Assembly: GCA_000004985.1 (NCBI GenBank)
Contig: GG738908.1
DNA length: 64,000 bases
DNA from: Naegleria gruberi
Taxonomy: Eukaryota
Strand: one strand, 5' to 3'
Positions within the stretch are counted from its first letter, which is position 1. Every line of letters begins with the position of its first letter. A program made the translations under genes and the position numbers. Of the stretch, positions 1,095 through 19,497 are shown in pieces. The notes below the pieces were generated by a model. That model was not told the origin of the DNA, searched no databases, and saw nothing but the letters and a program-made list of their open reading frames with translations.

Positions 1095-2340
1095 TGTTAT
1101 AATGTTGTTGTTTTTTATGATTTTTATTTCAATTGACAGCTTTTGAATTTTGACAGGCCAAGCTCTTAGTAGTGAATATTCTTAATGTTTCTTAAAAGAA
1201 CTAAATACCGCTCTGCATTTCGTTATAAGAGTTCCTTAACTGTCGTTGCTAAAGTAATCAATTACCAAATTTGTATAATTATAAATGTCAGCAATCATTG
1301 ATAAGAAAGTGAGCGGATCATTAAATTGTCTTTCTCGTTGTGATACGACCAGCTTGGTATGGTGTTGATATCTTTAAAAACGCAAGTACATTGTTATTTC
1401 GTCCACTTTCCAATAACATTATGCAAGTCAATGAACCAAACGAGTTGTAATTAATGCATTAAAGTGTTGATACTATGGCTATAAGGCAACATTTATATCA
1501 TGATTGCAAATGATGTGAAAAAATAAACATTGACATTTGTGAAAATTTCGGACGAAAGTGGTTTACTAGCACAAAATGTTCAATGAAACATTTATAAACC
1601 TTCAGTTCCAAAAATATTGAATCATTTTCAAATTGTAAAGAAATTTGAAATTTATTCTTGTAAAATTTGTGTCTGCCTTCTCGATTAGTTGTTTGAATGG
1701 TTTCTTCCTCCTTCTTTGATGTTTCTCGACAAGTTAAAATACATGTATTCATTTAATCTTTTGCCTTTCATATAAACTCTATATCAATTTGATTCGCATA
1801 TTCAATGCATCTATTGCTTCAATCATGTGAATTGGCGCCAAAATTGATGATGATGAAAACCTTAATCAAAAAAAAATACTCAAACAAGATCACACCATGC
1901 GATTTATTCTCTCTAGTTGTCAACAGCCGACGGAGAAGATGAATTTGTATTATTTAAAAAATTAGCAATAGTAGTAGTAGTGGATCTTGGACTGATGGTT
2001 TTGTGAAGAAAATAGTATCATGATTTCAATCCTAAGGGAAAAGAAGAACAGGAGAGACAATGGTCCGAAGTGTGCACCGATCCAAACATAACTTTCTTGT
2101 TCTCTCCTAAATTTCAAAAAACATTCCTCCTCGCTTGACAAAAGTCTTGGTTCTGCTTTTTCATTATATTTTAATGATTGCAATAATATTATTATTATTT
2201 AAACACCTGATTGCTTGGTGACCTTACGGAAAGGAATTTGGTGGGAATTCTAATAATCATTACTTTGGTTAAATAATGGTCATCATTTTCAATGTTGGCA
2301 TTGATAGAGCTGTCAAATTATTAAAGTCAAATCAAAAAAA

Positions 2341-5070
2341 ATGGCAGGAGATTTTCGGAAGGCGTTTTATGCTGCGGAAAAAGGCAAAATTGATGAATTT
2401 AATAATTATTTTAATGAACAAGACGTTAATAAATCACAGAGAGGTGTTACCATGTTATATATTGCTTGCCAAAATGGACATTTAGAAATTGTTAAATTAT
2501 TATTATCATGTAAAACAATTGATGTTAATTTGAGTGTAAGTATTTTAATATTTAATTTAATTTTATATTTATAATATTAGACTGTAAGTATTTCAATGTT
2601 TAATATTTTTTATATTTAAAATATACATTAGACTGTAAGTATTTGATATTTAATATTATTTTATATTTTTAATATTAGTATGTAAGTATTTTAATATTTA
2701 ATATTTTTTATATTTTTAATATTAGTATGTAAGTATTTAATATTTAATATTATTTTATATTTATAATATTAGACCGTAAGTAATTAATATTTAATTTGAT
2801 ATTATTTATGTTTATAATATTAGTTTGTAAGTATTTAATTTTATTTATATTAATAATATTAGATGGTAAGTATTTTAATATTTAATATTATTTTATTTTT
2901 AATATTAGACACCATTATACATTGCGTGCCACTATGGACATTTAGAAATTGTTAAAGAATTACTTCAACATCCAAATATTGAAATAGATAGCGAATTGTC
3001 AGTGAATGGAATTAATATTCAAACAATTAAAAGTGACATGGAAAAGGAACAACAAATATTACAAGAACAAATAGAACAAAAAAAGTTGAAACAACTAGAA
3101 ATGGAAAGATTAGAAAGAAAAAGAATTACAAAATTAGAAATGGAAAGAATTGAAAAAGAACGTTTATTAAAAATAGAAAGAGAAAGAAAAGAATTTGAGA
3201 AAAAGCAACCATTCATAATCACATCTGAAACACTTTCAAAATTATGTTCACTCAACCAACAAGTAGATAATAATAGAAGAAAAGTTGAAAAACAATTTGA
3301 ATCAATTCAATCATTTTCTTCTTCTATTCAAATTGAGAAAGAATTTCAAGATGAATATTTAAGAATTTGTGATAATTTAAATAATTGTTGTAATTTAATT
3401 GAAAAATTAACAAGTAATAATTATAATATTGAAAATAATGAACATTTGTCAACTATTAATAATTTAATGAATAATATTAGAACTATATTGGAATTTATTA
3501 ATAATCAAAAATATTTATTTAAATTACAATCTTATTCAGAAGTATTAAATGAAAAATTAGAATTATTTAATGAATTTAATTCTCAATTTATTAAACAAGA
3601 ATTATTTGACAATATTGAAATGAGTGAACAATCTATTAAGAATATAAAAAGTATTAATATTGTTCCAACTCATAATAAATTTGGAAATGAAACTAAAACA
3701 ATATTACAACAAGTTACAAAACAATTATCAAATATTGTAAACTCTATCAATAATTGTAATGAAATTGATTTGACACAATTTTCAAATAATTTACAAAAAG
3801 CAATGGAATTATCAGAACAAGAAGAATTATATTTAAATAATATATTGTCAAATTGTAAAATATTAATTTCAGACAATGATCAAATGAATATTTTACAATT
3901 ATATAATTATTATCAAAAACAAGAATTAAATTGTAAATTATTAATTCAAGAAACAATTCCATATATAATTGAAAAATATGAAATGTTACAAAATATTATA
4001 AATATTATGAATAATTATTCAAATTTATCTGAACAATTTAAAACTATTCAAAGACAAAAAACAAGAATTNAAGAAATTTAATTGTGANNNNNNNNNNNNN
4101 NNNNNNNNNNNNNNNNNNNNNNNNNNNNNNNNNNNNNCATGAAAATTTGAAAATTGAAATTTTAAATCTAGAAAAGGAAAAGAAACAATTTTCAAATTCA
4201 AAGTCAAAGAAAAGTGAAGAAATTTCAAAGAAATTACAAAATTTGAAACAAAAAGAAATTGAAATTGAGAAGATGGAAAAGGAAATTAAAGAATCAAAAT
4301 CCAAACAATTAACAATTTCACTTCCAAGTTATTGGAAAAGAAACACATTCCAAACTTATTCGAAAAGATATTACATTATTGATGTTACACAATATTTAAA
4401 AGATACAATGCAAGAAATTATGAATGTATCGTGTAATTCTGCAACACTTGGATCTGGAAGAGATCAATTATTAAGAATTAATTATTCTAAATTAATTGTT
4501 TCAAGTGTTTCAAGAATTGAAAATTCAACACTTTTCACTTCATTCAAATCAAGAATGAATCATTTAATTTCATATCAAGATTCAATTAATTCACTTCAAG
4601 TTCAAACTGAAAATATTTCAAAAACATCAAAAACATTTGAATGGATGAAAACAATTGGATTAAATTCTAATATGAATGAAAAATATTTATGGCATGGAAC
4701 AAAACCTGAATTTGTGAATACAATTGCAGAACATGGATTTGATGAAAGAGTTGCAAATTTAAATGGATTATTTGGAGCAGGTATTTATTTTGCAGAATAT
4801 TGTTCAAAGAGTGATCAATATTGTACACCTGATCATTCAAATGAATATACTCTTTTATTATGTAGAGTTGTAATGGGAAGACAAATTCATTTCACAAAAC
4901 AAGTGATGAATAATCAGAGAAGACCACCTGAAATTTCAGGAAGTAATAATAGAGTTTATGATAGTGTTATTGGTCAATCAAATACTTCAACTAATTCATA
5001 TAGAGAATTCATTGTCTATGATAAATGTCAATGTTATCCTGAATTTATTATTAAATACAAGAGACAATAA
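2341..5070 (+). CDS. Ankyrin-repeat / coiled-coil / PARP catalytic domain protein (tankyrase-like architecture). Exon 1 is 2341..2535, the intron is 2536..2908, and exon 2 is 2909..5070. Exon 2 is interrupted by the assembly gap 4088-4137 with an apparent frame change across the gap.
   Basis: aaaaaaaATG at 2341. Exon 1 encodes the ANK repeat 'TMLYIACQNGHLEIVKLLL'. Exon 2 opens with a second ANK repeat 'TPLYIACHYGHLEIVKELL' in the same frame as ORF 2996..4081, which is K/E-rich coiled coil ('LEMERLERKRITKLEMERIEKERLLKIERERKEFEKK'). After the gap, ORF 4084..5070 carries a PARP catalytic signature: 'YLWHGT' (His), 'GIYFAEY' (Tyr), 'YREFIVYD' (Glu), i.e. an H-Y-E triad. Confidence 0.6.
2536..2908 (+). 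repeat. Intronic tandem array of about 8 mini-intron-like units (~45-50 nt each, GTAAGT...TTAG) separated by 3-nt spacers.
   Basis: Direct reading shows units beginning gtaagtat at 2536, 2584, 2635, 2682, 2729, 2776, 2827 and 2866, each ending 'aatattag' or 'acattag'. The spacers are ACT, ACT, TAT, TAT, ACC, TTT, ATG. The last acceptor ...ttag|ACACCATTATAC gives in-frame 'TPLYIAC'. Confidence 0.8.
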
Positions 5071-5705: not shown

Positions 5706-7703
5706 TTGGATTCGGAAGAAATTAATTCGAATAAGAAAATTTGGATTTCGTTTATAATAGTTTCGATTATGTTCGGAGGATTAGTTTTATTATTAATGAA
5801 TGATTCATTCATTACGAACGGATCAGATTTTATTCGAAAGGATTCGTTTGAAATTTCTACATCCAATCACGAACTGAAATTAATAGAAATTTATTCCAAT
5901 ACCACTTCTTCTACTGAAATACGAAACGATTCATCAATTTGTCATCCAATTTTATTAGAAATGGGAGCCGAAAGTTCTTTAGGTCTTTGTGATGATCAAG
6001 TTTCGTCCAAAACCATCGCAGCAATCTTTCTCTTTGCCCACACCATCCTCGTTATTGTCACTCTCTCTGGCCTTCTCTACAAATTATGGAAATTACGAAA
6101 CGACATTTCGAATAGAGAAGCCAACTTTCTAACCATTACCAGAAATCCACTTTTAATGACATTAGGCTCCTTAATTGGATGGAGCTATAGTCTTGTAATG
6201 ATGGGAAGAGTACTCATTGGACGAAAGGTTTATCCATGTTTCTTATTCATGTTTGTTTTCTATATGGCAGTTCCTGGATTGGCAAGTACGATCATTATCA
6301 GATGTTTGAGATTGATAATTTTATCGAGGATGAATGAATTGAAAGTCAAGATTGGGAATAGAGAGATGAAGAGTGTGCCGAATCAAGTGAATGATAAATT
6401 GGAAAGGAAATATTCGAATGTTGTTGTGGATGGTGGAGTGGTGGTTGAAAGTGAATTGAAAGTTGTGAGCTCTGTAACGAGTACGAGTACTCAGCAAGAT
6501 GCAATTAATTCTTCTCTTGACAATGTGTCAGAAAGTGAGAGTGCTTGCACAATTTCAGCAATTCCACCAAGTATAGAGCCACAATCAATGAATATTACAT
6601 TGGAAGATTCTGTGAGTGTAAATCAACCTGGATATTCGAAATGGGAATCATTTGAAAGAAGATGGCTCATGAAAATGTACAAATTTCTAATTAGTTCCAA
6701 ATTCATAGCCATCTGGTATGCATCCATTGCAATTATACATATTGGAATTTACATTATCATTGGAGCATTTGATTATTTCAATTTCGAGAATGGTGTTAAC
6801 AATTTTTCCATTGAAGAACGACGATCCATGTCATTTGTGTACGATACTCGAATTTTCTCAGTTGGAGGATGTGGAATTAGTTTCAATTCAGTTTTAATTT
6901 TTGTCATTTATTTGGCAGTTTATGGAATTGTGGCCATTGTCATGTCCATTTATAGTTTTCTGGTCAAGAAGGATATTTGGAAAGTTAAAACAGAGCTCAT
7001 CCTCATTACACTCAATTGGTTAATCTTTTCAATTCTGTACGGAGTTTTTTCAATCATTGAAGTGTTGAGCATTCTCGTTGATTATTTCTTTCCAACAGTT
7101 GCTTTTATTTTACTGGCATGTGTCATTGACACGTTTGTTTCATGCACCATTCCAGTATTTTTCTATCAACGTTCCAAGAACTCTAAAGTAGCCAACACTC
7201 GACAAGTTTCCACCTCCAACATGCTTTCTAAAATACTATTTGATAAGAAATGGAATGAGGAATTCTTAATCTTTTCAGAGAAGAGTTATTGTCCAGAAAA
7301 TTTAATGTGTTGGAATTCTATTGAGATTTTTAGAGAATCTTCTGAGAAATTGAGAAGGAAACATATAATTAGTATTCTGGAAACTTATTTATTGGAAGGA
7401 TCTCCTTTGGAACTCAATGTTCAACGTCAAATATTTAATAATTTTGAAAATATCACGTCAATTGTCAGATCAATCAAAGCTCAAGAAGCAGAATTGAAAC
7501 GCTTAGCAGAGGAGAATAATAAGGTTGTGGGAACAGCTGTGGTAGCTCTGCAACGTAGAAAGTCAATGAAAATCATTCAAATTCCAACAAATTTATTCGA
7601 TTCCATTCAGAAACATTGTGAAATTAATATGGCTGATTGTTTTGATAGATTTTATGTGCAACATTGGCAGAAATTATGCATGGAATTGGATGTAGAGGAG
7701 TGA
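5706..7703 (+). CDS. 7TM-RGS protein: N-terminal Cys-containing ectodomain, 7 predicted TM helices, C-terminal RGS domain. Single exon. The first in-frame ATG is at 5769; the true start is uncertain.
   Basis: Seven hydrophobic helices (e.g. 'IAAIFLFAHTILVIVTLSGLL', 'CFLFMFVFYMAVPGLASTIIIRCL', 'FFPTVAFILLACVIDTFVSCTIPVFFY'). The RGS box is 'FSEKSYCPENLMCWNSIEIFRESSEKLRRKHIISILETYLLEGSPLELNV' (the S-x-EN-x-x-FW-core pattern of RGS domains). The architecture is like plant AtRGS1. Confidence 0.6.
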   Translation: MDSEEINSNKKIWISFIIVSIMFGGLVLLLMNDSFITNGSDFIRKDSFEISTSNHELKLIEIYSNTTSSTEIRNDSSICHPILLEMGAESSLGLCDDQVSSKTIAAIFLFAHTILVIVTLSGLLYKLWKLRNDISNREANFLTITRNPLLMTLGSLIGWSYSLVMMGRVLIGRKVYPCFLFMFVFYMAVPGLASTIIIRCLRLIILSRMNELKVKIGNREMKSVPNQVNDKLERKYSNVVVDGGVVVESELKVVSSVTSTSTQQDAINSSLDNVSESESACTISAIPPSIEPQSMNITLEDSVSVNQPGYSKWESFERRWLMKMYKFLISSKFIAIWYASIAIIHIGIYIIIGAFDYFNFENGVNNFSIEERRSMSFVYDTRIFSVGGCGISFNSVLIFVIYLAVYGIVAIVMSIYSFLVKKDIWKVKTELILITLNWLIFSILYGVFSIIEVLSILVDYFFPTVAFILLACVIDTFVSCTIPVFFYQRSKNSKVANTRQVSTSNMLSKILFDKKWNEEFLIFSEKSYCPENLMCWNSIEIFRESSEKLRRKHIISILETYLLEGSPLELNVQRQIFNNFENITSIVRSIKAQEAELKRLAEENNKVVGTAVVALQRRKSMKIIQIPTNLFDSIQKHCEINMADCFDRFYVQHWQKLCMELDVEE

Positions 7704-7870: not shown

Positions 7871-9792
7871 ATGCCCAACTGCCATTCACTTGGCAGCTGC
7901 CACACGTCACTTGACATTCAAAAACCAAAAACAAGATTTTTCATCTCTCTATCTCTTCTCATCATGATGACGATGAATTTTCCAACAAACGCATCAATTT
8001 TGAATACAACCATCATCAACACTGAATTACGAAATGATTCGTCAGTTTGTCATCCAATTTTATTAGAAATGGGAGCCGAAAGTCAGTACGGATTATGTGA
8101 TGACCAAACACCTTCAAAAGCACTTGCTGGAATCTTTCTCGGATTGCACACAATTTTGGAAATAGTTTCGTTTATTGGACTTTCGTATAAATTATGGAAA
8201 GTAAAAAGGTCAACCAGCAATGAAGCCAATTTTCTGACCATTACCAGAAATCCACTTCTCATGATTTTGGGCTCATTGGTCGGATATATCTATAGCATTA
8301 TCATGATGGTTAGAATTTTAATTGGACGAAAGATTTTTCCATGTTTCTTATTCATGTTTTGTTTTTATATGGCAGTTCCAGGATTGGCAAGTACGATCAT
8401 TGTCAGATGTTTGAGAACTATTACATTATCGAGGATGAATGAATTGAAAATCAAGATTGGTAATCGAGAAATGAAAGATTTGAAAAATGTCGAGTTGAGT
8501 GTGATGAGTTCTGTACAGATTGATGCAGTTTCGTCTAGTACGGAAACTTCTGAGAGTAATGTTTCACAAACTAATGTTTCATTTTCGGTTGAAAGTAATG
8601 CTACTGGATCACATTCTGGAACTTTGGAAAGTGGAAATCAAATGGTCAACCAGCAAGTTACTTTGGAAGATTCTGTCAGTGTGAATCAACCAGGAATTAC
8701 CAAATGGGAGAATTTTGAAAAGAAGGTCTTGATGAAGGTTTACAAATTCCTGATCAGTACCAAATTTGTAGTATTGTGGTATTCAATGATTGCCATCGTT
8801 CACATTGGAATTTATATCATTATTGGCGCAGTTGACTATGTGAATTATGATAAGAATATTGCACTTTCGTATGCTGAAAAAAAGTCCTCGTCCTTTGTTT
8901 ACGATACCAGAATATTCACAACCAATGGATGTGGTATCAGTTTCAATAGTGTTCTCATTATTATTGCCTATTTGGTGTTTTATGGAAGTTTTGCAATTGT
9001 GATTATTGGATATAGTTTTTTAATTAAGAGAGATATTTGGAGAGTCAAGATTGAGTTGTATATTATTGTGATTTGTTGGATTTTATTGATTATTCTGTAT
9101 GCTGTCTTTTCAGTTATTGACATTTTGAGTACCTTGTAAGTAATATAGTAGTAGTAGTAGAATGATTAACATTTGACAGGGTTGATTATTATTTTCCAAC
9201 CTTTTTGTTTATTTTGATTGGCTGTATGATTGATACATTCATGAGCGTGACAGTTCCTGTCTTTTTCTATCAAAAGGCAACAATAGATAATAGATATTCT
9301 CAATCTTCTAGAACTAACATACTTGTCAAGTGTCTATTCAATAAGAAGTGGAATGATGAATTTTTACTCTTCTCTGAAAAGAGCTATTGTCCAGAAAATT
9401 TGATGTGTTGGAATGCCGTTGAGCAATTTAAGAGAGCTCCTGAAAAACTGAGAAGAAAACTCATTAAGGTCATTATGGAGACCTATCTTATCGAAGGTTC
9501 TCCACTCGAACTCAATATTCAACGAAATATGTTCAATAATTTTGAAGATATTTCAGCCATCACTGATTCTATTAAGAGACAAGAGAATGAAATGAAAAGA
9601 CTTGTCGCAGAGAATAATATCGTGGTTGGAACGATCAAAAAGAGAAGATCTATGAAAATGATTTCAATTCAACCAAATATTTTGGATAGAGTTCAGAAAC
9701 AATGTGAAGTGAACATGGTTGACTGTTTTGATAGATTTTATATTCAGTATTGGCAAGATATGTGTAAAGATTTGGAATCTGATGAGAATTAA
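7871..9792 (+). CDS. 7TM-RGS protein, tandem paralog of the upstream gene: join(7871..9135, 9180..9792), with one 44-nt phase-2 intron.
   Basis: Colinear similarity to 5706..7703 ('NDSSVCHPILLEMGAES..GLCDDQ', 'NFLTITRNPLLM', 'CFLFMF.FYMAVPGLASTII.RCL', RGS box 'FSEKSYCPENLMCWNAVEQF'). Donor tt|GTAAGT is at 9136 and acceptor ...tttgacag| at 9179. The join gives '...IDILSTL'+'VDYYFPTFLF', matching paralog 1 'LSILVDYFFPTVAF'. Confidence 0.65.
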
Positions 9793-10097: not shown

Positions 10098-13000
10098 TTA
10101 CATATTTGTTTCATGATCATCTAGCCATTGATAATTGAGTTCCTTTTCCTGTTCCATAATTTGAATCATTTCGGTACTGCTGATTCTTCCATTCTCTCCA
10201 GCAGAAGATCTTCCACTTCTTCTGTACATTTCCAAATCAATTAAATAGCATTGCAATACTGTATCAATAACAGTTTGGAAAATTGTAATAAACAATGAGC
10301 TGACAAGTACACTCATAGCAAAAACAATAACCAGCAACATAAAGCTATGATTCACATCAAGCCATTCCTTTCCTGAAAAGACAATTTCAAACAAGCCATA
10401 ATTACCTTGTTCATTGTAGGCATTGGTTATCTTTCCAACAACACTTGTGAATTCCTCAAGTGATTTATCTTGGGCATGAATGATAATATAAGCCACAGCA
10501 ACACTAATAATGGCGACTAACATTTTCATACAAAACATGATCCAATCGGTAATCCATTCCAGAACTGCAATAAATGTAATATTCTTACGCATCAGCTTGG
10601 TAGAACTGAGTGAGGAGTGGAAGAATGTTGTACCAAAAATGGCACAGTGAATCAAACTGTTTCTAGCAAAGAATTCCATGAATTTTTCAATGTACTTGAG
10701 AATAACAAATAGAATTCTATGGATAAATCTTGTTAAGAAATTATTTCTAAAATTGTTAATAAATCTAACAATAAAGAATTGACTCTCAACTGCTTGTTCA
10801 ACAGTGCTCTTTTCACTTTGATATCCCATCAAGGAAAGGGATGTCTTGATAACCAGTATCAAATATTTCACAAGTCCAACAAATAAACTAGCAAGTGCAA
10901 TACTTCCTGCATTGTAGTACATGACAAATAATGAAGCTTGAAGAACTGGAAGCTTTAGACACATGAGCGTCTTTTCATAGCTGTCAAATATTGCAGAGCT
11001 TGATTCACCTCTTCTTGCTGCTGTTATAGTTCCAGAAACGTTTCCAAACTTGAAATAGAAGGTAGAGGTAACACGAGCAACAACAATAGTAACAAAACTC
11101 AACAAGAATTGAGTAATCCAGAAGAAACCAAGCAAGTAGTATGCAAACCATCCTTTCAAGAGATGGGACTGCAAAGTTAAAATAAAGCTTGTTGGATTGG
11201 AGAGTGATTGCATCTTTTCAGTAAGGGTATTACCTGTGGCAATATTACTTGTAACTTTTCCAGCCAAAGATGAAGCATCTGTAATTCCAGCGGCTGTCAG
11301 TTCATTGGTGAGCAAGAGGGCAACAACACAGAACCACCAAACACAGAAAATAATGCCTCCAATAAAGATTGCAATAGGCAGTACTGTAAACATTTGAGGC
11401 ACTGTCGTAATAATCATGGCACTCTCCTTAATGATAGAAACTGATCTGGATAATGTCTTTTTCCAATAATTCCAGAAAATAAATGTGAACAACAAATTTG
11501 TAAAGAGTAAGAATAAACCACTGCCCAAGTAGAGAGAATTTTCCCAAGTTAAATCAGCAATAGTGGAAGAGAATTTCTGGGACCATCTTGATGAGCCAGA
11601 TACATTGAAATGTAGATCAGATCCTCCTTCAACAAGTAACATGATGGACAAGGAGAACCATGCAAGAATGAGTAGGGCAACGGTACCATAAATCAAAGGC
11701 TTGGCCAATACCCTCAACAAGACAACTGTAATAAATGATACAGCAGCAGTAATTGTAACTGAGATGAGAATAATTTTCCAACTATTATACAACATGGTAA
11801 CACTCTTAATGATAAACTTTTCCAAGAAGGAAGGCATCAAACCAGATAATTCTTGAATATTAATTTCCTTTCCAATATTTGAAATGGTTGGTAAATTATC
11901 AATATAAGGACCAATAGTTGCACTGAAATATGAAGCAGGTGATATAGTAGTAATATGTCGTATCAAATTGGAGAGGGCTGACTTTTGTTGTTCAAACATT
12001 TCTTCAGTCATTTCGAAACCTGAAATTGTTTGAAGACTGGACTTGGTATTCAAATTGTTTTGCAATTTAGCCAAATTAGCTGCTTGTTCAAAGAATGCAA
12101 ATGAAGACGGTGTAGGAATGCAACGTCCCATCACTGAAAAGTAGGTTTGATCTTGAGGAACTTCGAAATAGACAGGTTCTGCTTTCTTTTCCTTGGAGAG
12201 GAAGAAACGTTTAGCAGCACACAAGTTCTTCTTTTTGATAATGACTTTGGTGACATTTTCTGTAATGGTTTCATTTCCTACAATCTTTTTAACTTGTTCG
12301 GTAATTTCAGTCTTATCGAACCAGGTTTTTCTCAAGGAGAGAGGGCATTCATCCGATACAAATGACAAACTTTCTGTTGATTGAGATGAGAATTCATCAC
12401 GAACATCAAGGTCCTTATTGTTCAAATTCTTTGAATTATCAATAGTCTTGACAGCACTTGGGCAACTCTCCACACAAATACCTCCATGTTTAATCCAAGT
12501 TTCAAATGGTACTGTTGATTTGGCAAGGTCATACTTTTCCTTTCCAAAGAATGCATCCTTTTCATTCATAATCCACAAATATTTACGTGATGAAAGATCT
12601 TCCTTCCAATAGTTTTTATCAACCATAGAATCAGCAAATTGAAGTGCTCTATTTTGAATAGATAAACTATCGAGAGATCCATCATCTTTAGAATAATCAA
12701 CACCACAAGCTCTTCCCAAATAATCAATCGGATAGAAGAAACGTGTCATTTCCCTCTTTGATGGAATAAAGTAATTAAAGAATGAAATATTGTCGTCTAA
12801 TGATGATGGATTGTTGTTGTTACTATTTACAGAGGAAGTAAGAAGGTCGGCAACACTGGCTTTTAAAAGATTCATCTCTGCCCCTTGATTATGTTCCTTC
12901 AATTGTGCTGAAATGTACTCTCTTCTCTTTACTATAGCCTCCAAAGCAATAGCAATCATACCAATACAGAAGAGGATAAACACAATAAGGAAGAGAATAT

Positions 13001-13370
13001 CTCTACATGGACGATTTTGATGGAATTCATAAGTGTACTTTTTAACGAGGAGACTATTACTCTTTCTATTGTTATTACCAAGAAGTGATTCTTCATCAGA
13101 GTCTGAATCAAAGTCTAGTGATGGTTTAGGAATGGTAGCAGAAGGTCTTCCGCCATTGTTATTATTATGAGATGATGTGTTATTGTTATTATTTGCAGAG
13201 TTTGTAGTTTTGTTAGTTGTATGATTGTTATTAGTTGAAGTTTGTTGTTGTTGGTTTGTTTGATTAATCTTTGTATTGACCAATTCAACTTCCCTCGATA
13301 GATATTCTAACAACTCTTCTGGAGAAGGAGTTGGATATAAATTGTTATTATTATTGCCTTGTTGACTCAT
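10098..13370 (-). CDS. Large polytopic membrane protein, probably of the choline-transporter-like (CTL/SLC44) family. It has an N-terminal Asn-rich cytosolic tail, TM1, a Cys- and N-glycosylation-rich ectodomain, then about 9 TM helices. Single exon.
   Basis: 1090-aa ORF without stops. The topology (TM 'ILFLIVFILFCIGMIAIALEAIV', a ~400-aa loop with many Cys and NxS/T sites, then repeated helices such as 'LKGWFAYYLLGFFWITQFLLSFVTIVVARV') is typical of CTL proteins. The family call rests on topology plus weak motif resemblance and is unverified. Confidence 0.45.
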   Translation of the reverse strand: MSQQGNNNNNLYPTPSPEELLEYLSREVELVNTKINQTNQQQQTSTNNNHTTNKTTNSANNNNNTSSHNNNNGGRPSATIPKPSLDFDSDSDEESLLGNNNRKSNSLLVKKYTYEFHQNRPCRDILFLIVFILFCIGMIAIALEAIVKRREYISAQLKEHNQGAEMNLLKASVADLLTSSVNSNNNNPSSLDDNISFFNYFIPSKREMTRFFYPIDYLGRACGVDYSKDDGSLDSLSIQNRALQFADSMVDKNYWKEDLSSRKYLWIMNEKDAFFGKEKYDLAKSTVPFETWIKHGGICVESCPSAVKTIDNSKNLNNKDLDVRDEFSSQSTESLSFVSDECPLSLRKTWFDKTEITEQVKKIVGNETITENVTKVIIKKKNLCAAKRFFLSKEKKAEPVYFEVPQDQTYFSVMGRCIPTPSSFAFFEQAANLAKLQNNLNTKSSLQTISGFEMTEEMFEQQKSALSNLIRHITTISPASYFSATIGPYIDNLPTISNIGKEINIQELSGLMPSFLEKFIIKSVTMLYNSWKIILISVTITAAVSFITVVLLRVLAKPLIYGTVALLILAWFSLSIMLLVEGGSDLHFNVSGSSRWSQKFSSTIADLTWENSLYLGSGLFLLFTNLLFTFIFWNYWKKTLSRSVSIIKESAMIITTVPQMFTVLPIAIFIGGIIFCVWWFCVVALLLTNELTAAGITDASSLAGKVTSNIATGNTLTEKMQSLSNPTSFILTLQSHLLKGWFAYYLLGFFWITQFLLSFVTIVVARVTSTFYFKFGNVSGTITAARRGESSSAIFDSYEKTLMCLKLPVLQASLFVMYYNAGSIALASLFVGLVKYLILVIKTSLSLMGYQSEKSTVEQAVESQFFIVRFINNFRNNFLTRFIHRILFVILKYIEKFMEFFARNSLIHCAIFGTTFFHSSLSSTKLMRKNITFIAVLEWITDWIMFCMKMLVAIISVAVAYIIIHAQDKSLEEFTSVVGKITNAYNEQGNYGLFEIVFSGKEWLDVNHSFMLLVIVFAMSVLVSSLFITIFQTVIDTVLQCYLIDLEMYRRSGRSSAGENGRISSTEMIQIMEQEKELNYQWLDDHETNM

Positions 13371-14013
13371 ATTATATAATTATTATTATTTACAAAGTAA
13401 TATGTACAGATTCATAAATTTACAAATTGTAGCTTCTTGTTGAAATCTTCTCAGAGTACAAGTCTTTGCTTATTATTATTTAGCTTGTTGAAGAAGAGGT
13501 CAAACCAGCTTGGTCCACGTTTGTTGTACAATTTTGATGAAGATAATCGGAACGCTGGAGAGATGATGAACAATGAAGAAGGCAAATTTTATTAAAAATA
13601 AAAAAAATAACGTGATGATGTTGTTCTATTAATAAAACATTCTATTTTTTGCTTTGGTATGAAGTTTGATGATGAAAATTTAAAAAGATTACATTAGTGT
13701 TTTTGTTTCCGGAATAATAATATTTATTTGAATCTTATTGTGAGTCTATTTAATGATTAATATTGAATTTTTGTAGACAAAAGATTAAGAATGGCATATT
13801 TGTGATATTCTTAGTTAAATATTGCTTTGTTAGGTATCTGGTCGAGTATTCTCTTTTCTTTGGAATATTGGGACCAGTTGGAGGTATCATATTTTCCTGA
13901 TGGATTAACTTTTTTCAATCCAAAATGAAATTTTGATTTGTACAATTTACTTTTTTATAATTATTCTAGCTCAAATTAGTAATTTGGTTGATGACACATT
14001 AATGGTAAATAGA

Positions 14014-15294
14014 TTAATTAATCACTGTTAGTTTCAAGTCAGCAAAGTAATGACATGTTGTGGCACAAATTATTTTCAAATTTTCATTGAAATATACTAG
14101 ACACTTGCTTGCAATTTTCCTATTGTAAATCACATAATACGAACTGCCACAATCCACACTCATTTCATAACTTTGTGGACTAGCTCTTCCAAATGAGTAG
14201 TACCAACACTCTTGTGGTTCACTGTTAAACTTGTACTTTCTTCCAAAATTGGAACCTCCAATACCAAGAAATCCAAATTCATTGACAAAAGTTGTTGAAC
14301 TTCCACCACACAAAATACTTTTCGGTTTAAATACATGATTACTTGATAGGTTTCCTTCATATACAATTGGAGAAACTGAATCATTCAATGGTTGTAAGGG
14401 AAATGATGGAAAATTCAATTTGGTCAAAAATTTCTCTATAAAATTATAATCGAATCCACATTGAGAATATAAATTAAAACCACACGTATAGACTTGACCA
14501 TTCTCTAATAGGATACACGTATGAAAAATTCCACATTTCATTTGCTTAATTCGTTCGCCCTTAAATGGCGTATCCATTTCAGAGAAACGGTCCTTTGATA
14601 TTTGACCATTTTGAACACTGAATGTATCATCACCATGAGTGAGAATATGATGAGAGCCATCCTCTTTCTCATACACAACAAATGTGGAATATCCACTCAG
14701 TGCAGATGTTACATATTTCTTATCTGTGAAATCCAATCTCAAGTCAACTTGCTCAATTATACCATTCGAGGTTGTTCTGAAATAATAAATCATGGAATCA
14801 TTTCCGTACACAATCATGTGAGAAGATGAAGGTCCACATACAATTTCCCTAATTTCAATTCCATCATCCATAAATTTCTTACAACTATTCGAATATCCAA
14901 TTGAAGTTTCGAATGTCAAAATTAAATTATTCTTCATTTGTAAAACAATAAATTCGAGATTGGAATAAACATTTTCCACTTGATAGCAATTTCCTAACTC
15001 CATCATTTCCATAGCAAGTTTATAATTCAATAAATAGAAATCTTGATTATTGACACATTGATTGAAATATTCGGAACAACAGATTGAGCTTGAAAACTTG
15101 ACAAAAAGATCTTCTTCCATCAAGGTAGTATGATGTTTCGGCCACAATCTCACAACAAAGCAAGTTCCTCCACAAATAACACTCCGAATATCTTTCGAAT
15201 AATTATTAGAAACCGGTCCGAGATGACAAGGTTCAAAATCATGAGCATCAGGATTTCTAATTCCCAATGTCAGTAGTGGTATTGTATTTTGCAT
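14014..15294 (-). CDS. RCC1-like repeat (beta-propeller) protein.
   Basis: 426-aa ORF with repeated 'hhCG..H.hhl..nG.VYtcG.N..gQcG' blocks ('CGIFHTCILLENGQVYTCGFNLYSQCG', 'ILCGGSSTTFVNEFGFLGIGGSNFGRK', 'VCGPSSSHMIVYGNDSMIYYF'). Confidence 0.45.
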   Translation of the reverse strand: MQNTIPLLTLGIRNPDAHDFEPCHLGPVSNNYSKDIRSVICGGTCFVVRLWPKHHTTLMEEDLFVKFSSSICCSEYFNQCVNNQDFYLLNYKLAMEMMELGNCYQVENVYSNLEFIVLQMKNNLILTFETSIGYSNSCKKFMDDGIEIREIVCGPSSSHMIVYGNDSMIYYFRTTSNGIIEQVDLRLDFTDKKYVTSALSGYSTFVVYEKEDGSHHILTHGDDTFSVQNGQISKDRFSEMDTPFKGERIKQMKCGIFHTCILLENGQVYTCGFNLYSQCGFDYNFIEKFLTKLNFPSFPLQPLNDSVSPIVYEGNLSSNHVFKPKSILCGGSSTTFVNEFGFLGIGGSNFGRKYKFNSEPQECWYYSFGRASPQSYEMSVDCGSSYYVIYNRKIASKCLVYFNENLKIICATTCHYFADLKLTVIN

Positions 15295-15502
15295 GATCGC
15301 AGAAGTGATATTTTTTATATTTAAATATTTTGAAAATGGCCAAAATTATTCTTGTGAAATTGAGAGAAGGAAATGTTGTGCTAATACCAAATCAATTTTG
15401 CTTTCATTGCTAGATGTATCAAGGTTATGTTTTTCTTCATCTGAAGATTGGTCAGACGAATTATTGATATATTGGAATATTCCTGTAGAACTATCAGACT
15501 GT

Positions 15503-18500
15503 TTATTGAATGAAAATGAAAGCAAGAATCAATGAAAACAATACAATGAAATAGAATTTGGAGGAAGATGCTTGGTTGACTGATTGTTGAGCTAAAGTTG
15601 GTGAAATGGCAAAATCAGTCAAGTGAACAGTTCTACATTTGACTCTGGTATTACTAATCTTGATAGATTCCAATCCAATTGATGAGAATTGTGATGATTG
15701 AGTATTGTAGAATTGACACAAACCCATCATTGTAGAATTCATTAAAGAAATGTCAACTTCAAACTCAATTGGGGAAGTGAGGTCTGAAATTTCGAGTTCA
15801 GTACCATTAGAAAGAATGTTAATTGAAATAATGGAAGAAACCAAATCAGTCTTGATGTGAGAGTAAATATTTTGTGAAATGATTGATAAGGAAATTGAAA
15901 CAGAAGCACTGGAATCTAATTGATATTTGGAAGAAAGCAACTTTTTCAAAGAATCCTTTGGTAAGCTCAAGGAAGAAAGTCCAATTTGAGAAGGTGAGAA
16001 ATTAAAGTTGTCAATTGTGCTCTTTACAACAGCTGTCTTGACAAGATTTGAAACTGAGACGCTCGATTGTCCATCAACCAATGACATGGCTGCTCCAACT
16101 TGACTAGCATCAATGACCTTCTTTAATTGAGAAGCAAAATTAGAATTTGATGTGGAAACAGTTGAAACCAATTGAGAAACTGTCTTGACAATGGAAGTTC
16201 TATCAGTAGATTGTAAGTTTTGCTTCAAAGATGTAGAAATACTCGACAATAAATTCAAAGTCTTTTGAGCTGTGTCTGATGTAATTTCTGATGGTTGATT
16301 GGTTAATCTTTCCAAAAGTCCAATCTTTGCGGTGTCAGAATCAGTTGAAGCAATAATTTGAGTCAAAATGTTACTTCTGATTGATGTCTTTTCAGTAGTT
16401 GTAAGCTTGGAATTGAGTAATGAATTGGCAATTTCCAAAGAACTCAATGAAGTGCTGCTAATCAAAGAGTTGACAAGTGAGCTAACTTCTTGAGCTGACA
16501 TGGTAGTAGTTGGATCTTGAATGGTCAAAACTTTAGTTTTTTCAACTGTTGTAAAAGCAGCATCTCTGACTGCAAAGAAAATTGTCACTTGTCCAGAGCT
16601 GAAAGTAGGAAGAGTAAATGTTGGGGATGTTGAGCTAGCACTCAATTCAGCAACATAAACTTTGCTATTTTCTTGAGTATAATAACCAAATGAATAGAGC
16701 ATGGTAAATGATTCTGGATCCGTGGCAACCAAACTAGCTCTTAAACTTGTCTTGACAGCAAGTGCAGAACTAATTTCCAATCCACTAGTAGCATTGACAA
16801 CCTTGAATGATGAAATAGTTGGTGATCTGTTAATGGTAATCTTTAAATCTTTTGAAACGGATACAGATCCAGTAGCAGAAACACGAGTAGCATTCAATCT
16901 GAAAGTATAAGTTGCTCCTTCTGTTAAACTATTTGCCTTAATGGCTAAATCTTTCTTGTCAGTTCCAGCAACTGAAATAGTTTCCAAATTGACTGCAGTT
17001 CCAGAAACTTGAGTCCACTTGTAGCTCAATGAAGAATACGCACTCAATGATGAAATTGTAGATTTGAAAACAATGTCCATCGATCCAGGAGTATAAACAG
17101 TTTGTCCAGAGGTGAAAGTTGGTGAACTGATAACAGCATCGAATGACAAATCACAACTTCCATAAACATAATTGGCTGGACAGGTACAAATATTTGGACC
17201 AGTACATTGTCCAAATCCACAACCACCCTTAGAGGAACAATCAAATACGTTACAATCACTTCCAGTATATCCTGACTTGCAAGTACAAACATTAGGTGAA
17301 GTACATGTACCATTTCCATTACAATTATTGAGAGTGGTACAAGTTGGAGTGTTACAACTAGCTCCTGTATATCCAGATTGACAAGTACAGACATTAGGAC
17401 CAGTACATTGACCACGATTCATGCAATTCGAAACCAAATTACAACTATATTGATTACAGGTACTTCCCTTATAACCAGCTTTACATAAACAAGTATTAAT
17501 GGCAAGACAATCACCATTTCCATTACAATTATTCACTCCAGCACATGATGGAGTTTCTCCAGGACGAACAGCTCTCAAGTAATTGCTAGTACATGCAGAG
17601 TTTTCACCCTGAGTGAGAAGATAGCCAACCGATGGATAATAATACTTGTATCCATTTGAATCTACTGCCTTAATATAATATTTTCTACAAGCAGTTCCAG
17701 AAGAAAGTCTAGTAGTATTATATTCGAAAGTTCCTGCATTCAAAGACGAATCAGTATACATACTCGATGTTGGAATACTCATTGGATATTCCACATCATT
17801 AATAAAAATGGAAACATTCAATGGAGCTACTCCCTTTCCCAAATCTGCCTTATGATAATAATTAGCAAGGAATGTAACTGTATCTGTGGCAAACGTAATA
17901 TGTGTAGCAGCAACGATTGGATTTGAAATACCATGTGAACCTGAGGCAAAATTCTGTGTCCAATAATCACTGAAACCTGTGGCTGCAACCTTTGGATAAT
18001 GTCCAACTCCAAGAAGGGTATATGAGCTTCCAAGAATGTTGGCTCTGTGTCCATCAGAATTAATCCAAGCCATGGTTACAGAAAGAGGACTTGTCTGTCC
18101 AGCTGCAATATTTTCAGCCATTGCTGCTGGTTTAGTGTAAAAAGTAGCAACTCTGGTGAAGGTTAGAGTTCCATCACATGAATTATGTTGAAAACAAGGT
18201 ACAGTTGCCATGTCTTTCGAATGGAATCGTCCAGATTCTACCAAATTGAAATGTTCGAAAAGTGGAGGCAAACCAGTGGTTTCCAATGACTTTTCTGCTT
18301 GGAATAAATTCAAGAATCTGGTCTTGAATCCTGAAGGAGACATTCTAGCCCAATTTGTTAAAACATGGACCGTCTTTTCGACATATCTCGAATAAGTGTA
18401 AACTAAATCAGAAAGTGCATTCACACCAACTTGATCACCAATTCCATAAAATTCCCAATTACCATTATCTGTGCTGCCATTGTTGGTTGAAGCACCACCA

Positions 18501-18685
18501 TCATTAGCAAAAGTGGCCATGACAGCACGTTTGTTTTTGGCAAATTTCAAATTGCTGTCAAATGCCATCGAAGGAGGATTTTGTGAAATGACAGATAGAG
18601 GTTCATGTTCTGCCAACACCAGAAAGAGGGAGGATAATACCAACACTACCAAGAGTGCATAATGCAACCTGTTACTCAACAACAT
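15503..18685 (-). CDS. Giant secreted protein: signal peptide, CAP/SCP (PR-1-like) domain, about 5 tenascin-type EGF repeats, and a long Ser/Thr-rich (mucin-like) tail. Single exon.
   Basis: Signal peptide 'MLLSNRLHYALLVVLVLSSLFLVLA'. CAP motif 'SDGHRANILGSSYTLLGVGHY' (compare 'GH[RY]xNIL...GVG' of SCP-like proteins). EGF repeats 'CNGNGDCLAINTCLCKAGYKGSTCN', 'CMNRGQCTGPNVCTCQSGYTGASCN', 'CNGNGTCTSPNVCTCKSGYTGSDCN'. The C-terminal ~500 aa are S/T-rich. Confidence 0.6.
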   Translation of the reverse strand: MLLSNRLHYALLVVLVLSSLFLVLAEHEPLSVISQNPPSMAFDSNLKFAKNKRAVMATFANDGGASTNNGSTDNGNWEFYGIGDQVGVNALSDLVYTYSRYVEKTVHVLTNWARMSPSGFKTRFLNLFQAEKSLETTGLPPLFEHFNLVESGRFHSKDMATVPCFQHNSCDGTLTFTRVATFYTKPAAMAENIAAGQTSPLSVTMAWINSDGHRANILGSSYTLLGVGHYPKVAATGFSDYWTQNFASGSHGISNPIVAATHITFATDTVTFLANYYHKADLGKGVAPLNVSIFINDVEYPMSIPTSSMYTDSSLNAGTFEYNTTRLSSGTACRKYYIKAVDSNGYKYYYPSVGYLLTQGENSACTSNYLRAVRPGETPSCAGVNNCNGNGDCLAINTCLCKAGYKGSTCNQYSCNLVSNCMNRGQCTGPNVCTCQSGYTGASCNTPTCTTLNNCNGNGTCTSPNVCTCKSGYTGSDCNVFDCSSKGGCGFGQCTGPNICTCPANYVYGSCDLSFDAVISSPTFTSGQTVYTPGSMDIVFKSTISSLSAYSSLSYKWTQVSGTAVNLETISVAGTDKKDLAIKANSLTEGATYTFRLNATRVSATGSVSVSKDLKITINRSPTISSFKVVNATSGLEISSALAVKTSLRASLVATDPESFTMLYSFGYYTQENSKVYVAELSASSTSPTFTLPTFSSGQVTIFFAVRDAAFTTVEKTKVLTIQDPTTTMSAQEVSSLVNSLISSTSLSSLEIANSLLNSKLTTTEKTSIRSNILTQIIASTDSDTAKIGLLERLTNQPSEITSDTAQKTLNLLSSISTSLKQNLQSTDRTSIVKTVSQLVSTVSTSNSNFASQLKKVIDASQVGAAMSLVDGQSSVSVSNLVKTAVVKSTIDNFNFSPSQIGLSSLSLPKDSLKKLLSSKYQLDSSASVSISLSIISQNIYSHIKTDLVSSIISINILSNGTELEISDLTSPIEFEVDISLMNSTMMGLCQFYNTQSSQFSSIGLESIKISNTRVKCRTVHLTDFAISPTLAQQSVNQASSSKFYFIVLFSLILAFIFIQ

Positions 18686-19084
18686 GTTTGCCCTTCAGAT
18701 GTCGTTATTTTTTTTGAATGATTTTAAAGCTGTCACCAATATCGCAGGGTTGTTGGCCAAAAACAAGTGAAAAGGATGATTTTGCGGGGTCAACACTCAC
18801 CTTTCATAGAGTTTACAATTGTTGATCCATGACAAATCATTAAACTCTATAAATGGAAAGTGAAAAAATTACAAAACGATTTCAAAACGTTAAATATTCA
18901 ATTCTTAAGTAAGTGGCAATTTAATTTGCATTTTATTTAATAACCTTATTAAACTTTCTCTAATATTTACTCTCCCTACAATAAAATCCCAATTTTTGAC
19001 AGAACGATCAATCACATCAAATAATTCTTCTAATTCATCTTTTCTAATTAAACTCTCCAATTTGTAGGCATAAATTGGTCGAAA

Positions 19085-19273
19085 TCAATGAGAACATTGT
19101 TGAGTGAAACCTTCCCAGGAATTCCCACTTTCCCAATGTCTGTTACAATCGGTGCAGTGATAATAGCCGTATTTTCTTGTTGGATTTGAGTTATTGTAAG
19201 TTTTCTTGAATTTGTGAGTCATTGTGCTTTTTAATTTGTTTTTGAAAATTGTTTTTTTTATAGAAAATTTCAC
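19085..19273 (-). CDS. Small ORF fragment with a 3CxxC-type zinc-finger-like motif. Probably an exon of a larger, unresolved gene.
   Basis: 'YGYYHCTDCNRHWESGNSWEGFTQQC' resembles the zf-3CxxC pattern (C-x2-C...W.S...). The ORF-track start is a non-ATG codon, so the gene model is unresolved. Confidence 0.2.
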   Translation of the reverse strand: MKFSIKKTIFKNKLKSTMTHKFKKTYNNSNPTRKYGYYHCTDCNRHWESGNSWEGFTQQCSH

Positions 19274-19497
19274 AATTCCTAACCTTAATTAGGTTCATGC
19301 TTTTTTATGAAAACTGATCAATTCAAGTCCATTGTAAACAGCAATACAATTTTTTTGTAATCTTGAACAACCCCTCTCAAATCCTCAACAAGCATTCACA
19401 ACTCCTCTTCACCGCACTCCTCAGAATTGGCGGCAATTAACAAGCAATAAAAAGCAAATTCCTTCGAAAAATTAACCGCCCAACACTTTGAAAAAAA

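What the first reader, a model, noticed from the sequence alone, without database searches (positions are those of the whole stretch)
2536..2908. First intron of the ANK-PARP gene is a tandem array of about 8 complete mini-introns separated by in-phase 3-nt spacers
Exon 1 ends ...AAT TTG AGT|gtaagt. The next 373 nt consist of about eight units of 45-50 nt. Each starts GTAAGTAT and ends AATATTAG or ACATTAG, which is a complete donor, AT-rich body and acceptor. The 3-nt spacers between units are ACT, ACT, TAT, TAT, ACC, TTT, ATG. The reading frame is preserved whether the whole block is spliced as one 373-nt intron (giving ...VNLS|TPLYIACHYGH, a clean ankyrin-repeat junction) or as serial mini-introns with 3-nt microexons. 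The structure implies intron expansion by tandem duplication of an intron together with 3 nt of flanking exon. It also offers built-in recursive or alternative splice sites. I am not aware of this arrangement being described as a general phenomenon.
Basis: seen in the sequence. Interest (0 to 1): 0.72.

Follow-up and report, generated by a model that had tools for sequence, protein, structure and literature searches.

The report
Eight tandem mini-introns, seven 3-nt exons
In a Naegleria gruberi ankyrin/PARP gene, one short intron has been copied head-to-tail eight times together with 3 nt of exon; the public gene model already treats the copies as eight separate introns with seven one-codon exons, but I found no transcript evidence and no published description.

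Summary
Window 2536-2908 holds exactly eight units of 36-48 nt. Each starts GTAAGTA and ends ATTAG. They are separated by seven 3-nt spacers: ACT, ACT, TAT, TAT, ACC, TTT, ATG.

The window is the end of a 259-kb scaffold of Naegleria gruberi NEG-M. Other introns in the window are 40-89 nt, so each unit is a normal-sized intron for this organism.

The arrangement is already in the public annotation. EFC38355.1 / UniProt D2VXV5 reads ...VNLS-TTYYTFM-TPLY..., meaning eight introns and seven 3-nt microexons. Part of that model is clearly ab initio, because it jumps an assembly gap from a weak donor. I could reach no transcript data.

Spacer ACT equals AC (start of exon 2) plus T (end of exon 1). 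This points to tandem duplication of T + intron + AC.

All 16 splice signals are invariant. The spacers are far more diverged than the intron bodies (p about 1e-5). This suggests the internal sites are under selection, and plain duplication with neutral decay does not explain it.

Verdict: a real and unusual locus, and a new variant of known kinds (tandem-duplication intron gain, microexons). Splicing is untested.

The parts
2341..2535 (+). Exon 1 (65 codons, MAGDF...IDVNLS; ankyrin repeats 1-2).
   Evidence: The ORF starts at the ATG at 2341. It aligns to the N-terminus of paralogue P0001. It matches residues 1-65 of EFC38355.1 exactly.
2536..2580 (+). Mini-intron unit 1 (45 nt, GTAAGTAT...AATATTAG). 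One of the five 'core' units.
   Evidence: It is 89-93% identical to units 3, 4, 5 and 8. If retained it gives an in-frame stop.
2581..2583 (+). Spacer / microexon 1: ACT (Thr).
   Evidence: It is translated as T66 in EFC38355.1.
2584..2631 (+). Mini-intron unit 2 (48 nt, ends ACATTAG). A diverged unit.
   Evidence: It is 72-84% identical to the other units, which is close to the shuffled-interior background of 74%.
2632..2634 (+). Spacer / microexon 2: ACT (Thr).
2635..2678 (+). Mini-intron unit 3 (44 nt). Core unit.
   Evidence: It differs from unit 5 at 2 of 44 positions.
2679..2681 (+). Spacer / microexon 3: TAT (Tyr).
2682..2725 (+). Mini-intron unit 4 (44 nt). Core unit.
   Evidence: It differs from unit 8 at 2 of 44 positions.
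2726..2728 (+). Spacer / microexon 4: TAT (Tyr).
2729..2772 (+). Mini-intron unit 5 (44 nt). Core unit.
2773..2775 (+). Spacer / microexon 5: ACC (Thr; synonymous with ACT).
2776..2823 (+). Mini-intron unit 6 (48 nt, GTAAGTAA...). A diverged unit.
2824..2826 (+). Spacer / microexon 6: TTT (Phe).
2827..2862 (+). Mini-intron unit 7 (36 nt). The shortest unit, and shorter than any other intron seen in this window (minimum 40 nt).
2863..2865 (+). Spacer / microexon 7: ATG (Met).
2866..2908 (+). Mini-intron unit 8 (43 nt). Core unit.
2909..4081 (+). Next large exon (TPLYIACHYGH..., ankyrin repeat 3 plus coiled coil). It is open for 387 codons without a stop or N (to the single n at 4071) and ends at a TAA at 4079-4081, just before the assembly gap.
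   Evidence: It aligns to P0001. EFC38355.1 uses 2909-3650.
4090..4137 (.). Assembly gap (a run of N) inside the gene. There is also a single n at 4071.
4138..5070 (+). C-terminal coiled coil and PARP catalytic domain, with the stop codon at 5068-5070.
   Evidence: PF00644 hits; 97% identical to paralogue P0135.

Best explanation
Origin. A single phase-0 intron of about 44 nt sat in the loop between ankyrin repeats 2 and 3 of a Naegleria gruberi ANK / coiled-coil / PARP gene. It was duplicated in tandem at the DNA level together with 1 nt of upstream exon and 2 nt of downstream exon (T + intron + AC, which gives spacer ACT). The unit of about 47 nt was then amplified to eight copies by unequal exchange or slippage.

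Splicing. Every copy keeps a consensus 5' splice site (GTAAGTA), a conserved TTTrAT branch-like motif and an ATTAG 3' end. Every copy except unit 7 (36 nt) falls in the usual size range of N. gruberi introns. The spliceosome, pairing sites across short introns, should therefore remove most or all units separately. This leaves up to seven 3-nt microexons that add Thr-Thr-Tyr-Tyr-Thr-Phe-Met to the inter-repeat loop. Skipping any microexon stays in frame, so mis-pairing is harmless. Retaining any unit gives a stop codon or a frameshift.

What is shown: the anatomy, the ACT junction logic, the local intron sizes, and the conservation pattern. What is inferred: the duplication mechanism (confidence about 0.85) and unit-by-unit splicing in vivo (confidence about 0.55).
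For: - Array and frame.
- Organism: six long ORFs of the window are exact matches to N. gruberi NEG-M proteins on a 259,034-bp scaffold.
- Local introns: 13 candidates of 40-89 nt with GTAAGT/GTATGT...YAG. The 44-nt intron at 9136-9179 is confirmed by a gap-free alignment across the junction to the intronless tandem paralogue.
- Public model: EFC38355.1/D2VXV5 equals exon 1 + the seven spacers + exon at 2909.
- Conservation: GTAAGT and TAG show 0 changes in 72 positions. Intron bodies show 16 in 264. Spacers show 9 in 21. Fisher tests: signals vs spacers p = 3e-7; spacers vs bodies p = 1e-5.
- No spacer is a stop codon. Units retained on their own give stop codons or frameshifts.
- An AlphaFold2 model of the seven-microexon N-terminus keeps three ankyrin helix pairs (mean pLDDT 84.8, pTM 0.81). 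The inserted residues lie in a low-confidence loop: residues 61-70 average pLDDT 58, and residues 66-69 are below 50.
- With no microexons the ankyrin repeat would be 29 residues. The paralogues have 32-34.
Against: - There is no transcript evidence. No EST- or RNA-seq-derived protein for this gene turned up in 5.8 billion sequences.
- The public model is at least partly ab initio. It bridges the N gap from a weak GTATTA donor, so its microexons may be only a predictor's choice.
- Unit 7 (36 nt) is shorter than any intron seen here.
- The putative branch motif is inferred from a small sample.
- Spliceosomes on introns 3 nt apart may interfere with each other.
- Pfam scores do not discriminate among the isoforms (64.8-68.6 bits).
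- Plain duplication followed by neutral decay does not explain why near-identical units (2 differences in 44) carry unrelated spacers.
Confidence: 0.6

Rival explanations
1. The block is one 373-nt intron. Only the outermost donor (2536) and acceptor (2908) are used, the internal sites are inert, and the array is simply a minisatellite inside an intron. The protein then reads VNLS|TPLY.
For: The frame is kept and the ankyrin profile still matches (Ank_2 66.1 bits). The public microexon model may be purely ab initio. The array RNA folds somewhat better than shuffles (z = -2.67), which could bring the two ends together.
Against: Seven perfect internal donors and seven perfect internal acceptors would all have to be ignored, in an organism whose introns in this window are 40-89 nt. 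Unused signals should decay like the rest of the sequence, yet they show 0 changes in 72 positions against 9 in 21 for the spacers. The resulting ankyrin repeat would be 29 residues against 32-34 in the paralogues.
Confidence: 0.2
2. The intron body alone, exactly from 5' splice site to 3' splice site, was copied repeatedly. This could be a splicing-coupled process (reverse splicing plus reverse transcription) or short-tract gene conversion among bodies. The spacers would then be old, or even ancestral, exon codons (S-TTYYTFM-T).
For: Body similarity and spacer similarity are decoupled. Units 3/5 and 4/8 each differ at 2 of 44 positions in the body, but at 5 of 6 and 3 of 3 spacer positions (Fisher p about 9e-7). 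The five core units are about equally similar to one another (89-95%), which looks like a burst or homogenisation. Paralogue P0001 has a linker of similar length, TDYRDY, at this place, sharing T, Y and an aromatic residue in the same order.
Against: Exact 3-nt spacing seven times over has no mechanistic reason under independent insertion, but follows automatically from unit duplication. Four of the eight triplets that follow a unit's 3' end (seven spacers plus the first codon of exon 2) start with AC, and three spacers are T[A/T]T, so the spacers are not random with respect to each other. There are no dispersed copies of the unit in the 62 kb.
Confidence: 0.12
3. The gene copy is decaying or not expressed, or the array is an assembly artefact, so the structure has no biological consequence.
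For: It is a draft assembly with an N gap inside the gene. The gene has one ankyrin repeat fewer than its paralogue. No transcript-derived protein was found.
Against: 387 open codons follow the array in sequence that is about 79% A+T. The PARP domain is 97% identical to the paralogue. All splice signals are intact. The eight units are all different and contain no N, so a collapse or expansion is not indicated.
Confidence: 0.08

Closest known systems
Intron gain by tandem genomic duplication (Rogers model; e.g. PMC3265369, PMC4974935, PMC2891723)
   Same: A local tandem DNA duplication creates additional functional splice-site pairs, and so additional introns, in one step. Duplications that preserve the frame tolerate alternative use of the sites.
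   Different: In the known cases an exonic segment carrying an AG|GT proto-splice site is duplicated, and the new intron is made of former exon. Here a complete existing intron plus 3 nt of exon is the unit. It was amplified to eight copies, and the by-product is a series of one-codon exons.
Microexons, including 1-3-nt exons (plants, PMC8831610; Drosophila hth 3-bp exon, PMC7392893) and schistosome micro-exon genes (bioRxiv 10.1101/2023.06.21.545858)
   Same: These are very short exons, down to 1-3 nt, that keep the reading frame (symmetric) and are flanked by introns on both sides. In micro-exon genes, series of such exons give in-frame protein variants by skipping.
   Different: Known microexons are separated by ordinary, unrelated and usually long introns, and are often ancient and conserved. 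Here seven 3-nt exons lie 36-48 nt apart, between copies of the same intron, and they look young.
Recursive splicing (ratchet points) and complex introns or stwintrons removable in one or several reactions (PMC7138796, PMC8469720)
   Same: An intervening sequence contains internal acceptor/donor pairs, so it can be removed stepwise or in one reaction.
   Different: Ratchet points have a zero-length exon (AG|GTAAGT) and leave nothing behind. Stwintrons are nested. Here the units lie side by side with 3 nt between them, so stepwise removal changes the protein.
Introners / introner-like elements (PMC3609843, PMC4457414)
   Same: There are many near-identical copies of one intron sequence.
   Different: Introners are dispersed across many genes, are longer, and are often structured or transposon-like. 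This unit occurs only in the local tandem array within the 62 kb examined.

Membership tests
U2-type GT-AG spliceosomal intron (each unit) | Consensus 5' splice site GTAAGT and 3' splice site YAG. | tested here: met
   All eight units start GTAAGTA and end ATTAG. The same signals are seen in the other introns of the window.
U2-type GT-AG spliceosomal intron (each unit) | Length within the range the organism can splice. | tested here: met
   Seven units are 43-48 nt. Local introns are 40-89 nt, and a 44-nt intron is confirmed by its paralogue. Unit 7 (36 nt) is below the shortest intron seen here.
U2-type GT-AG spliceosomal intron (each unit) | Branch-point motif at a workable distance from the 3' splice site. 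| tested here: inconclusive
   TTTAAT/TTTGAT is conserved in all eight units about 24 nt from the 3' end, and TTAAT/ATAAT lies about 7 nt from it. The local consensus (TTrAy-like) rests on only 13 introns.
U2-type GT-AG spliceosomal intron (each unit) | Removal observed in transcripts. | not testable with these tools
   No transcript data could be reached. RNA-seq exists under PRJEB23822 (PMC6142364).
Minisatellite / tandem repeat | Head-to-tail copies with a period of 10-100 nt. | tested here: met
   TRF: period 47, 8.1 copies, 78% matches.
Minisatellite / tandem repeat | Copy-number variation between individuals or strains. | not testable with these tools
   A contig from a strain 97.6% identical exists for another part of the window (L002), but none for this locus.
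Intron gain by tandem duplication of an exonic AG|GT proto-splice site | The duplicated segment is exonic and carries AG|GT, and the new intron consists of former exon. | tested here: not met
   The junctions are TAG|NNN|GTAAGT and the repeated unit is the intron itself.
Recursive splice site (ratchet point) | The acceptor is immediately followed by a donor (zero-nt exon), which regenerates the 5' splice site after ligation. | tested here: not met
   There are exactly 3 nt between every acceptor and the next donor.
Introner / introner-like element | Dispersed near-identical copies in unrelated genes. | tested here: not met
   A 34-nt unit probe with up to 3 mismatches matches only inside the array in 62 kb. 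A JGI metagenome scan for the junction motif gave 11 isolated chance hits. A genome-wide test in N. gruberi was not possible.
Microexon (3 nt, symmetric) | Flanked by an acceptor and a donor, length a multiple of 3, no stop codon, included in the mRNA. | tested here: inconclusive
   The first three features are met, and the microexons are included in the public model EFC38355.1. Inclusion in real mRNA is untested.
Tandem snoRNA-host introns | Each repeated intron encodes a small RNA. | tested here: not met
   No Rfam match at E <= 1 in 2200-3100. The units are 36-48 nt and 91% A+T.

The most novel reading that the evidence does not exclude
The array is a working combinatorial splice cassette. 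Any of the eight donors can pair with any later acceptor, giving up to 128 in-frame mRNAs. These mRNAs vary the length and sequence (0-7 residues) of an ankyrin inter-repeat loop, which is a typical binding surface. The one-codon exons would be under diversifying selection while the intron bodies are kept uniform. Alternatively, the copies were made by a process that copies an intron exactly from its 5' to its 3' splice site. Either reading would account for the otherwise unexplained contrast between near-identical intron bodies and unrelated spacers.
Probability: 0.15. Interest if true: 0.85.

Novelty: new variant of a known kind. Interest (0 to 1): 0.6.

Why it matters
If the units are spliced one by one, this would be the densest run of minimal exons that I know of: seven consecutive 3-nt exons within 373 nt. 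It would also be an unusually clear case in which new introns arise by tandem duplication of an existing intron rather than of exon sequence.

It is a natural test of three questions. How small can an exon be? How close can two introns lie? How does a short-intron spliceosome from a deep-branching eukaryote choose among equivalent sites?

Every possible outcome is in frame, so the locus also shows how such a duplication can be tolerated immediately. The mismatch between conserved intron bodies and hypervariable one-codon exons raises a concrete question about selection or about the copying mechanism.

Public RNA-seq of this strain exists, so the central question can be answered quickly.

Tried and rejected
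1. Paralogue DNA. The look-up of encoding contigs had no record for P0001, P0004, P0135, or the 1090-aa ORF at window 10098-13370 (later identified as EFC38407.1). The N. gruberi genome is not in that index.
2. Independent assembly of the array. An exact look-up of the exon-1 read-through ORF (2341-2574) gave nothing.
3. Cross-species comparison. The N. fowleri homologue (L001) has coiled coil, kinase and PARP but no ankyrin N-terminus, so there is no orthologous intron.
4. Search for similar arrays elsewhere. A JGI metagenome scan for TAATATTAGNNNGTAAGTATTT gave 11 isolated chance matches and no arrays.
5. Dispersed 'introner' copies in the window: none.
6. Small RNAs in the units: no Rfam hit.
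7. Pfam scoring of the isoforms. The differences were 4 bits or less, which is not decisive.
8. Structure of the zero-microexon isoform.
9. Literature searches for tandem or duplicated introns, consecutive microexons, and Naegleria microexons. I found no description of this arrangement. The N. gruberi genome paper is not held in the library.
10. Higher-order repeat structure (TRF periods 98 and 145). These are not clearly better than period 47.
Full report
**What is there**

Window 2536-2908 (373 nt, 91% A+T) consists of exactly eight head-to-tail units of 45, 48, 44, 44, 44, 48, 36 and 43 nt. Each unit begins GTAAGTA and ends ATTAG. The units are separated by seven spacers of exactly 3 nt: ACT, ACT, TAT, TAT, ACC, TTT, ATG. 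Tandem Repeats Finder reports period 47, 8.1 copies and 78% matches.

The junction motif ATATTAGNNNGTAAGTA (up to 2 mismatches) occurs seven times in the array and once elsewhere. Shuffles give 0.45 matches on average for the whole window. The only AG dinucleotides in the block are the eight unit-final TAGs and the AAG inside each donor.

Upstream, the ORF 2341-2535 (65 codons) ends ...IDVNLS. Downstream, the frame starting at 2909 reads TPLYIACHYGH... and stays open for 387 codons. Reading through from exon 1 meets a stop after 12 codons.

**Where it comes from**

Six long ORFs of the window are exact matches to proteins of Naegleria gruberi NEG-M on a scaffold of 259,034 bp (EFC38407-38413 and others). 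The scaffold ends at 62017 and the rest of the window is N padding. A run of N at 4090-4137 lies inside the gene.

The gene encodes three ankyrin repeats, a long coiled coil and a PARP catalytic domain. It has close paralogues:

| Paralogue | Accession | Features | Location |
|---|---|---|---|
| P0001 | EFC41844.1 | ANK, coiled coil, kinase | 371-kb scaffold |
| P0135 | EFC41845.1 | PARP, 97% identical to this gene | next to P0001 |
| P0004 | EFC35747.1 | ANK, coiled coil | separate scaffold |

**Are the units credible introns here?**

A crude ORF-continuity scan of the window finds 13 candidate introns of 40-89 nt with GTAAGT (or GTATGT) donors and YAG acceptors. These include introns of 40, 43, 44, 44, 46 and 49 nt.

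One of them, the 44-nt intron at 9136-9179, is confirmed independently. Removing it gives a gap-free alignment across the junction to the intronless tandem paralogue at 5769-7703. So 43-48 nt is a normal intron size in this organism, whereas 373 nt would be unusual in this sample. Unit 7 (36 nt) is shorter than anything else seen.

A TTTAAT/TTTGAT motif is conserved in all eight units and resembles the TTrAy-like motifs upstream of other local acceptors. That branch-site consensus rests on few introns.

**The public annotation already contains the structure**

The gene model was hidden inside a 90%-identity cluster and surfaced only through a cluster look-up. It is EFC38355.1 / XP_002671099.1 / UniProt D2VXV5, 618 aa. 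Its sequence reads ...TIDVNLS-TTYYTFM-TPLYIACHYGH.... This is exactly exon 1 + the seven spacers + the exon starting at 2909.

The annotators' pipeline therefore spliced the block as eight introns with seven 3-nt exons.

The model is not proof. Further downstream it jumps the N gap from a weak GTATTA donor at 3651 to an acceptor near 4170. That is typical of an ab initio prediction. I could not find any transcript-derived protein for this gene, and the genome paper is not in the library.

**Origin**

Exon 1 ends ...AGT and exon 2 begins ACA.... The commonest spacer, ACT, equals AC + T. This is what a tandem duplication of [T + intron + AC] produces.

A fixed 3-nt spacing follows automatically from duplicating one unit, so the 'in-phase' property is not independent evidence of selection. 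I take DNA-level tandem duplication followed by amplification of the unit of about 47 nt as the origin, with confidence about 0.85.

The same spot is unstable in the family. Paralogue P0001 has one extra 33-residue ankyrin repeat exactly here, with an 18-residue stretch repeated identically.

**Evidence on use of the internal sites (indirect)**

- *Signal conservation.* GTAAGT and TAG show 0 changes in 72 positions. Intron bodies show 16 changes in 264 aligned positions. Spacers show 9 in 21. Fisher tests give p = 3e-7 for signals vs spacers, p = 0.03 for signals vs bodies, and p = 1e-5 for spacers vs bodies. Unused internal signals would have no reason to be better kept than their neighbours.
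- *Frame and stops.* No spacer is a stop codon, but the chance of that is about 0.5, so it says little. Each unit, if retained, gives stops or a frameshift.
- *Repeat length.* Without microexons, ankyrin repeat 2 would be 29 residues. The paralogues have 32-34 and the gene's own first repeat has 33. With all seven microexons it is 36.
- *Profile scores.* Pfam Ank_2 scores are 66.1, 68.6, 68.1, 67.8, 67.6 and 64.8 bits for 0, 2, 3, 4, 5 and 7 microexons. The profile does not decide.
- *Structure.* An AlphaFold2 model of the seven-microexon N-terminus keeps three helix pairs (mean pLDDT 84.8, pTM 0.81). The inserted residues lie in a low-confidence loop: residues 61-70 average pLDDT 58 and residues 66-69 are below 50. 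The insertion is structurally tolerable.

Together with the short-intron habit of the organism, I put unit-by-unit splicing at about 0.55. A single 373-nt intron gets about 0.2.

**An unexplained feature**

Because the bodies are almost pure A/T with fixed ends, even units with shuffled interiors align at 74 ± 5% identity, with a maximum of 89%. Units 2, 6 and 7 (71-84%) are therefore at background. Only units 1, 3, 4, 5 and 8 (89-95%, or 2-5 differences) are clearly related.

Yet these near-identical units carry unrelated spacers:

| Unit pair | Body differences | Spacer differences |
|---|---|---|
| 3 / 5 | 2 of 44 | 5 of 6 |
| 4 / 8 | 2 of 44 | 3 of 3 (upstream spacers) |

Fisher p is about 9e-7. 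Plain duplication plus neutral decay does not predict this. Three explanations are possible:

- Selection on translated one-codon exons. The changes are Thr to Tyr, Tyr, Phe and Met, plus one synonymous change (ACT to ACC).
- Homogenisation of the intron bodies by short conversion tracts.
- A copying process limited to the intron proper.

Against the third, four of the eight triplets that follow a unit's 3' end (seven spacers plus the first codon of exon 2) start with AC and three spacers are T[A/T]T. The exact 3-nt spacing seven times over also has no reason under independent insertions. P0001 has TDYRDY at this position, sharing T, Y and an aromatic residue in order with TTYYTF. That is suggestive only. 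Its DNA would settle the matter but could not be retrieved.

**Rivals excluded or weakened**

- There are no dispersed copies of the unit in 62 kb.
- No similar arrays turned up in JGI metagenomes.
- There are no Rfam matches.
- The N. fowleri homologue lacks the ankyrin part, so no orthologous intron exists.
- An artefact or a dead gene is unlikely. All units are different and free of N, 387 open codons follow the array, and the PARP domain is 97% identical to the paralogue.
- The array RNA folds slightly better than shuffles (z = -2.67). I give this little weight.

**Comparison with what is known**

| Known system | How this locus differs |
|---|---|
| Tandem-duplication intron gain (PMC3265369, PMC4974935, PMC2891723) | There, exon sequence with an AG|GT site is duplicated. 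Here the whole intron plus 3 nt of exon is the unit. |
| Microexons of 1-3 nt (PMC8831610, PMC7392893) | The spliceosome can handle such exons, but known ones sit between unrelated introns. |
| Schistosome micro-exon genes (bioRxiv 10.1101/2023.06.21.545858) | They use series of exons that keep the reading frame, for in-frame variation, but with long and unrelated introns. |
| Recursive splice sites | They have zero-length exons. Here 3 nt separate every acceptor from the next donor. |
| Stwintrons (PMC7138796, PMC8469720) | They are nested. These units lie side by side. |
| Introners (PMC3609843, PMC4457414) | They are dispersed across genes. This unit is local. |

None of the literature searches turned up a tandem array of complete introns separated by one-codon exons.

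**Verdict**

This is a real and well-defined locus. It is best described as a new variant of known kinds. The structure is already implicit in a public gene model, but I found no description of it and the splicing is untested. Public RNA-seq of this strain (PRJEB23822; PMC6142364) could settle the splicing question directly. Interest 0.6.

Noticed in passing
window 13152-20733 vs L002 1-7635: A metagenome contig (ENA ERZ929261, run ERR1078381, PRJEB11402) is 97.6% identical to this part of the window. ORFs differ by about 0.7-1% and non-ORF sequence by about 5%. A second N. gruberi-like strain is therefore present in public data and could be mined for the array locus.
   Followed up: partly
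window 5769-7703 and 7871-9792: These are two tandem paralogous 7TM-RGS genes. The second has a 44-nt GTAAGT...CAG intron at 9136-9179. The first is uninterrupted at the homologous codon (ATTCTC|GTTGAT at about 7074). This is a recent intron gain or loss between neighbouring paralogues.
   Followed up: partly
window 3651-4170, 4071 and 4090-4137: The public model EFC38355.1 bridges the assembly gap with a weak GTATTA donor. The sequence it removes (3651-4081) is open reading frame. Paralogue P0001 and the N. fowleri homologue carry a protein-kinase domain between the coiled coil and PARP, so a kinase domain may be hidden in the gap and the model is probably wrong here.
   Followed up: partly
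paralogue P0001 residues 33-105 (aligned to window 2440-2990): P0001 has one more 33-residue ankyrin repeat exactly where the intron array sits. HLEIVKLLLSCKTIDVNL is repeated identically, which indicates a recent tandem duplication at the same spot in the paralogue.
   Followed up: no
L001 2431-4378: In N. fowleri the kinase-PARP homologue lies directly downstream of an ADP-ribosylglycohydrolase gene (PF03747). This would pair an ADP-ribose writer with an eraser. The neighbourhood is not present in this window.
   Followed up: no
window 62018-64000: The scaffold ends at 62017 and the remainder is N padding. This explains the GC value of 0.001 in the last composition bin.
   Followed up: yes
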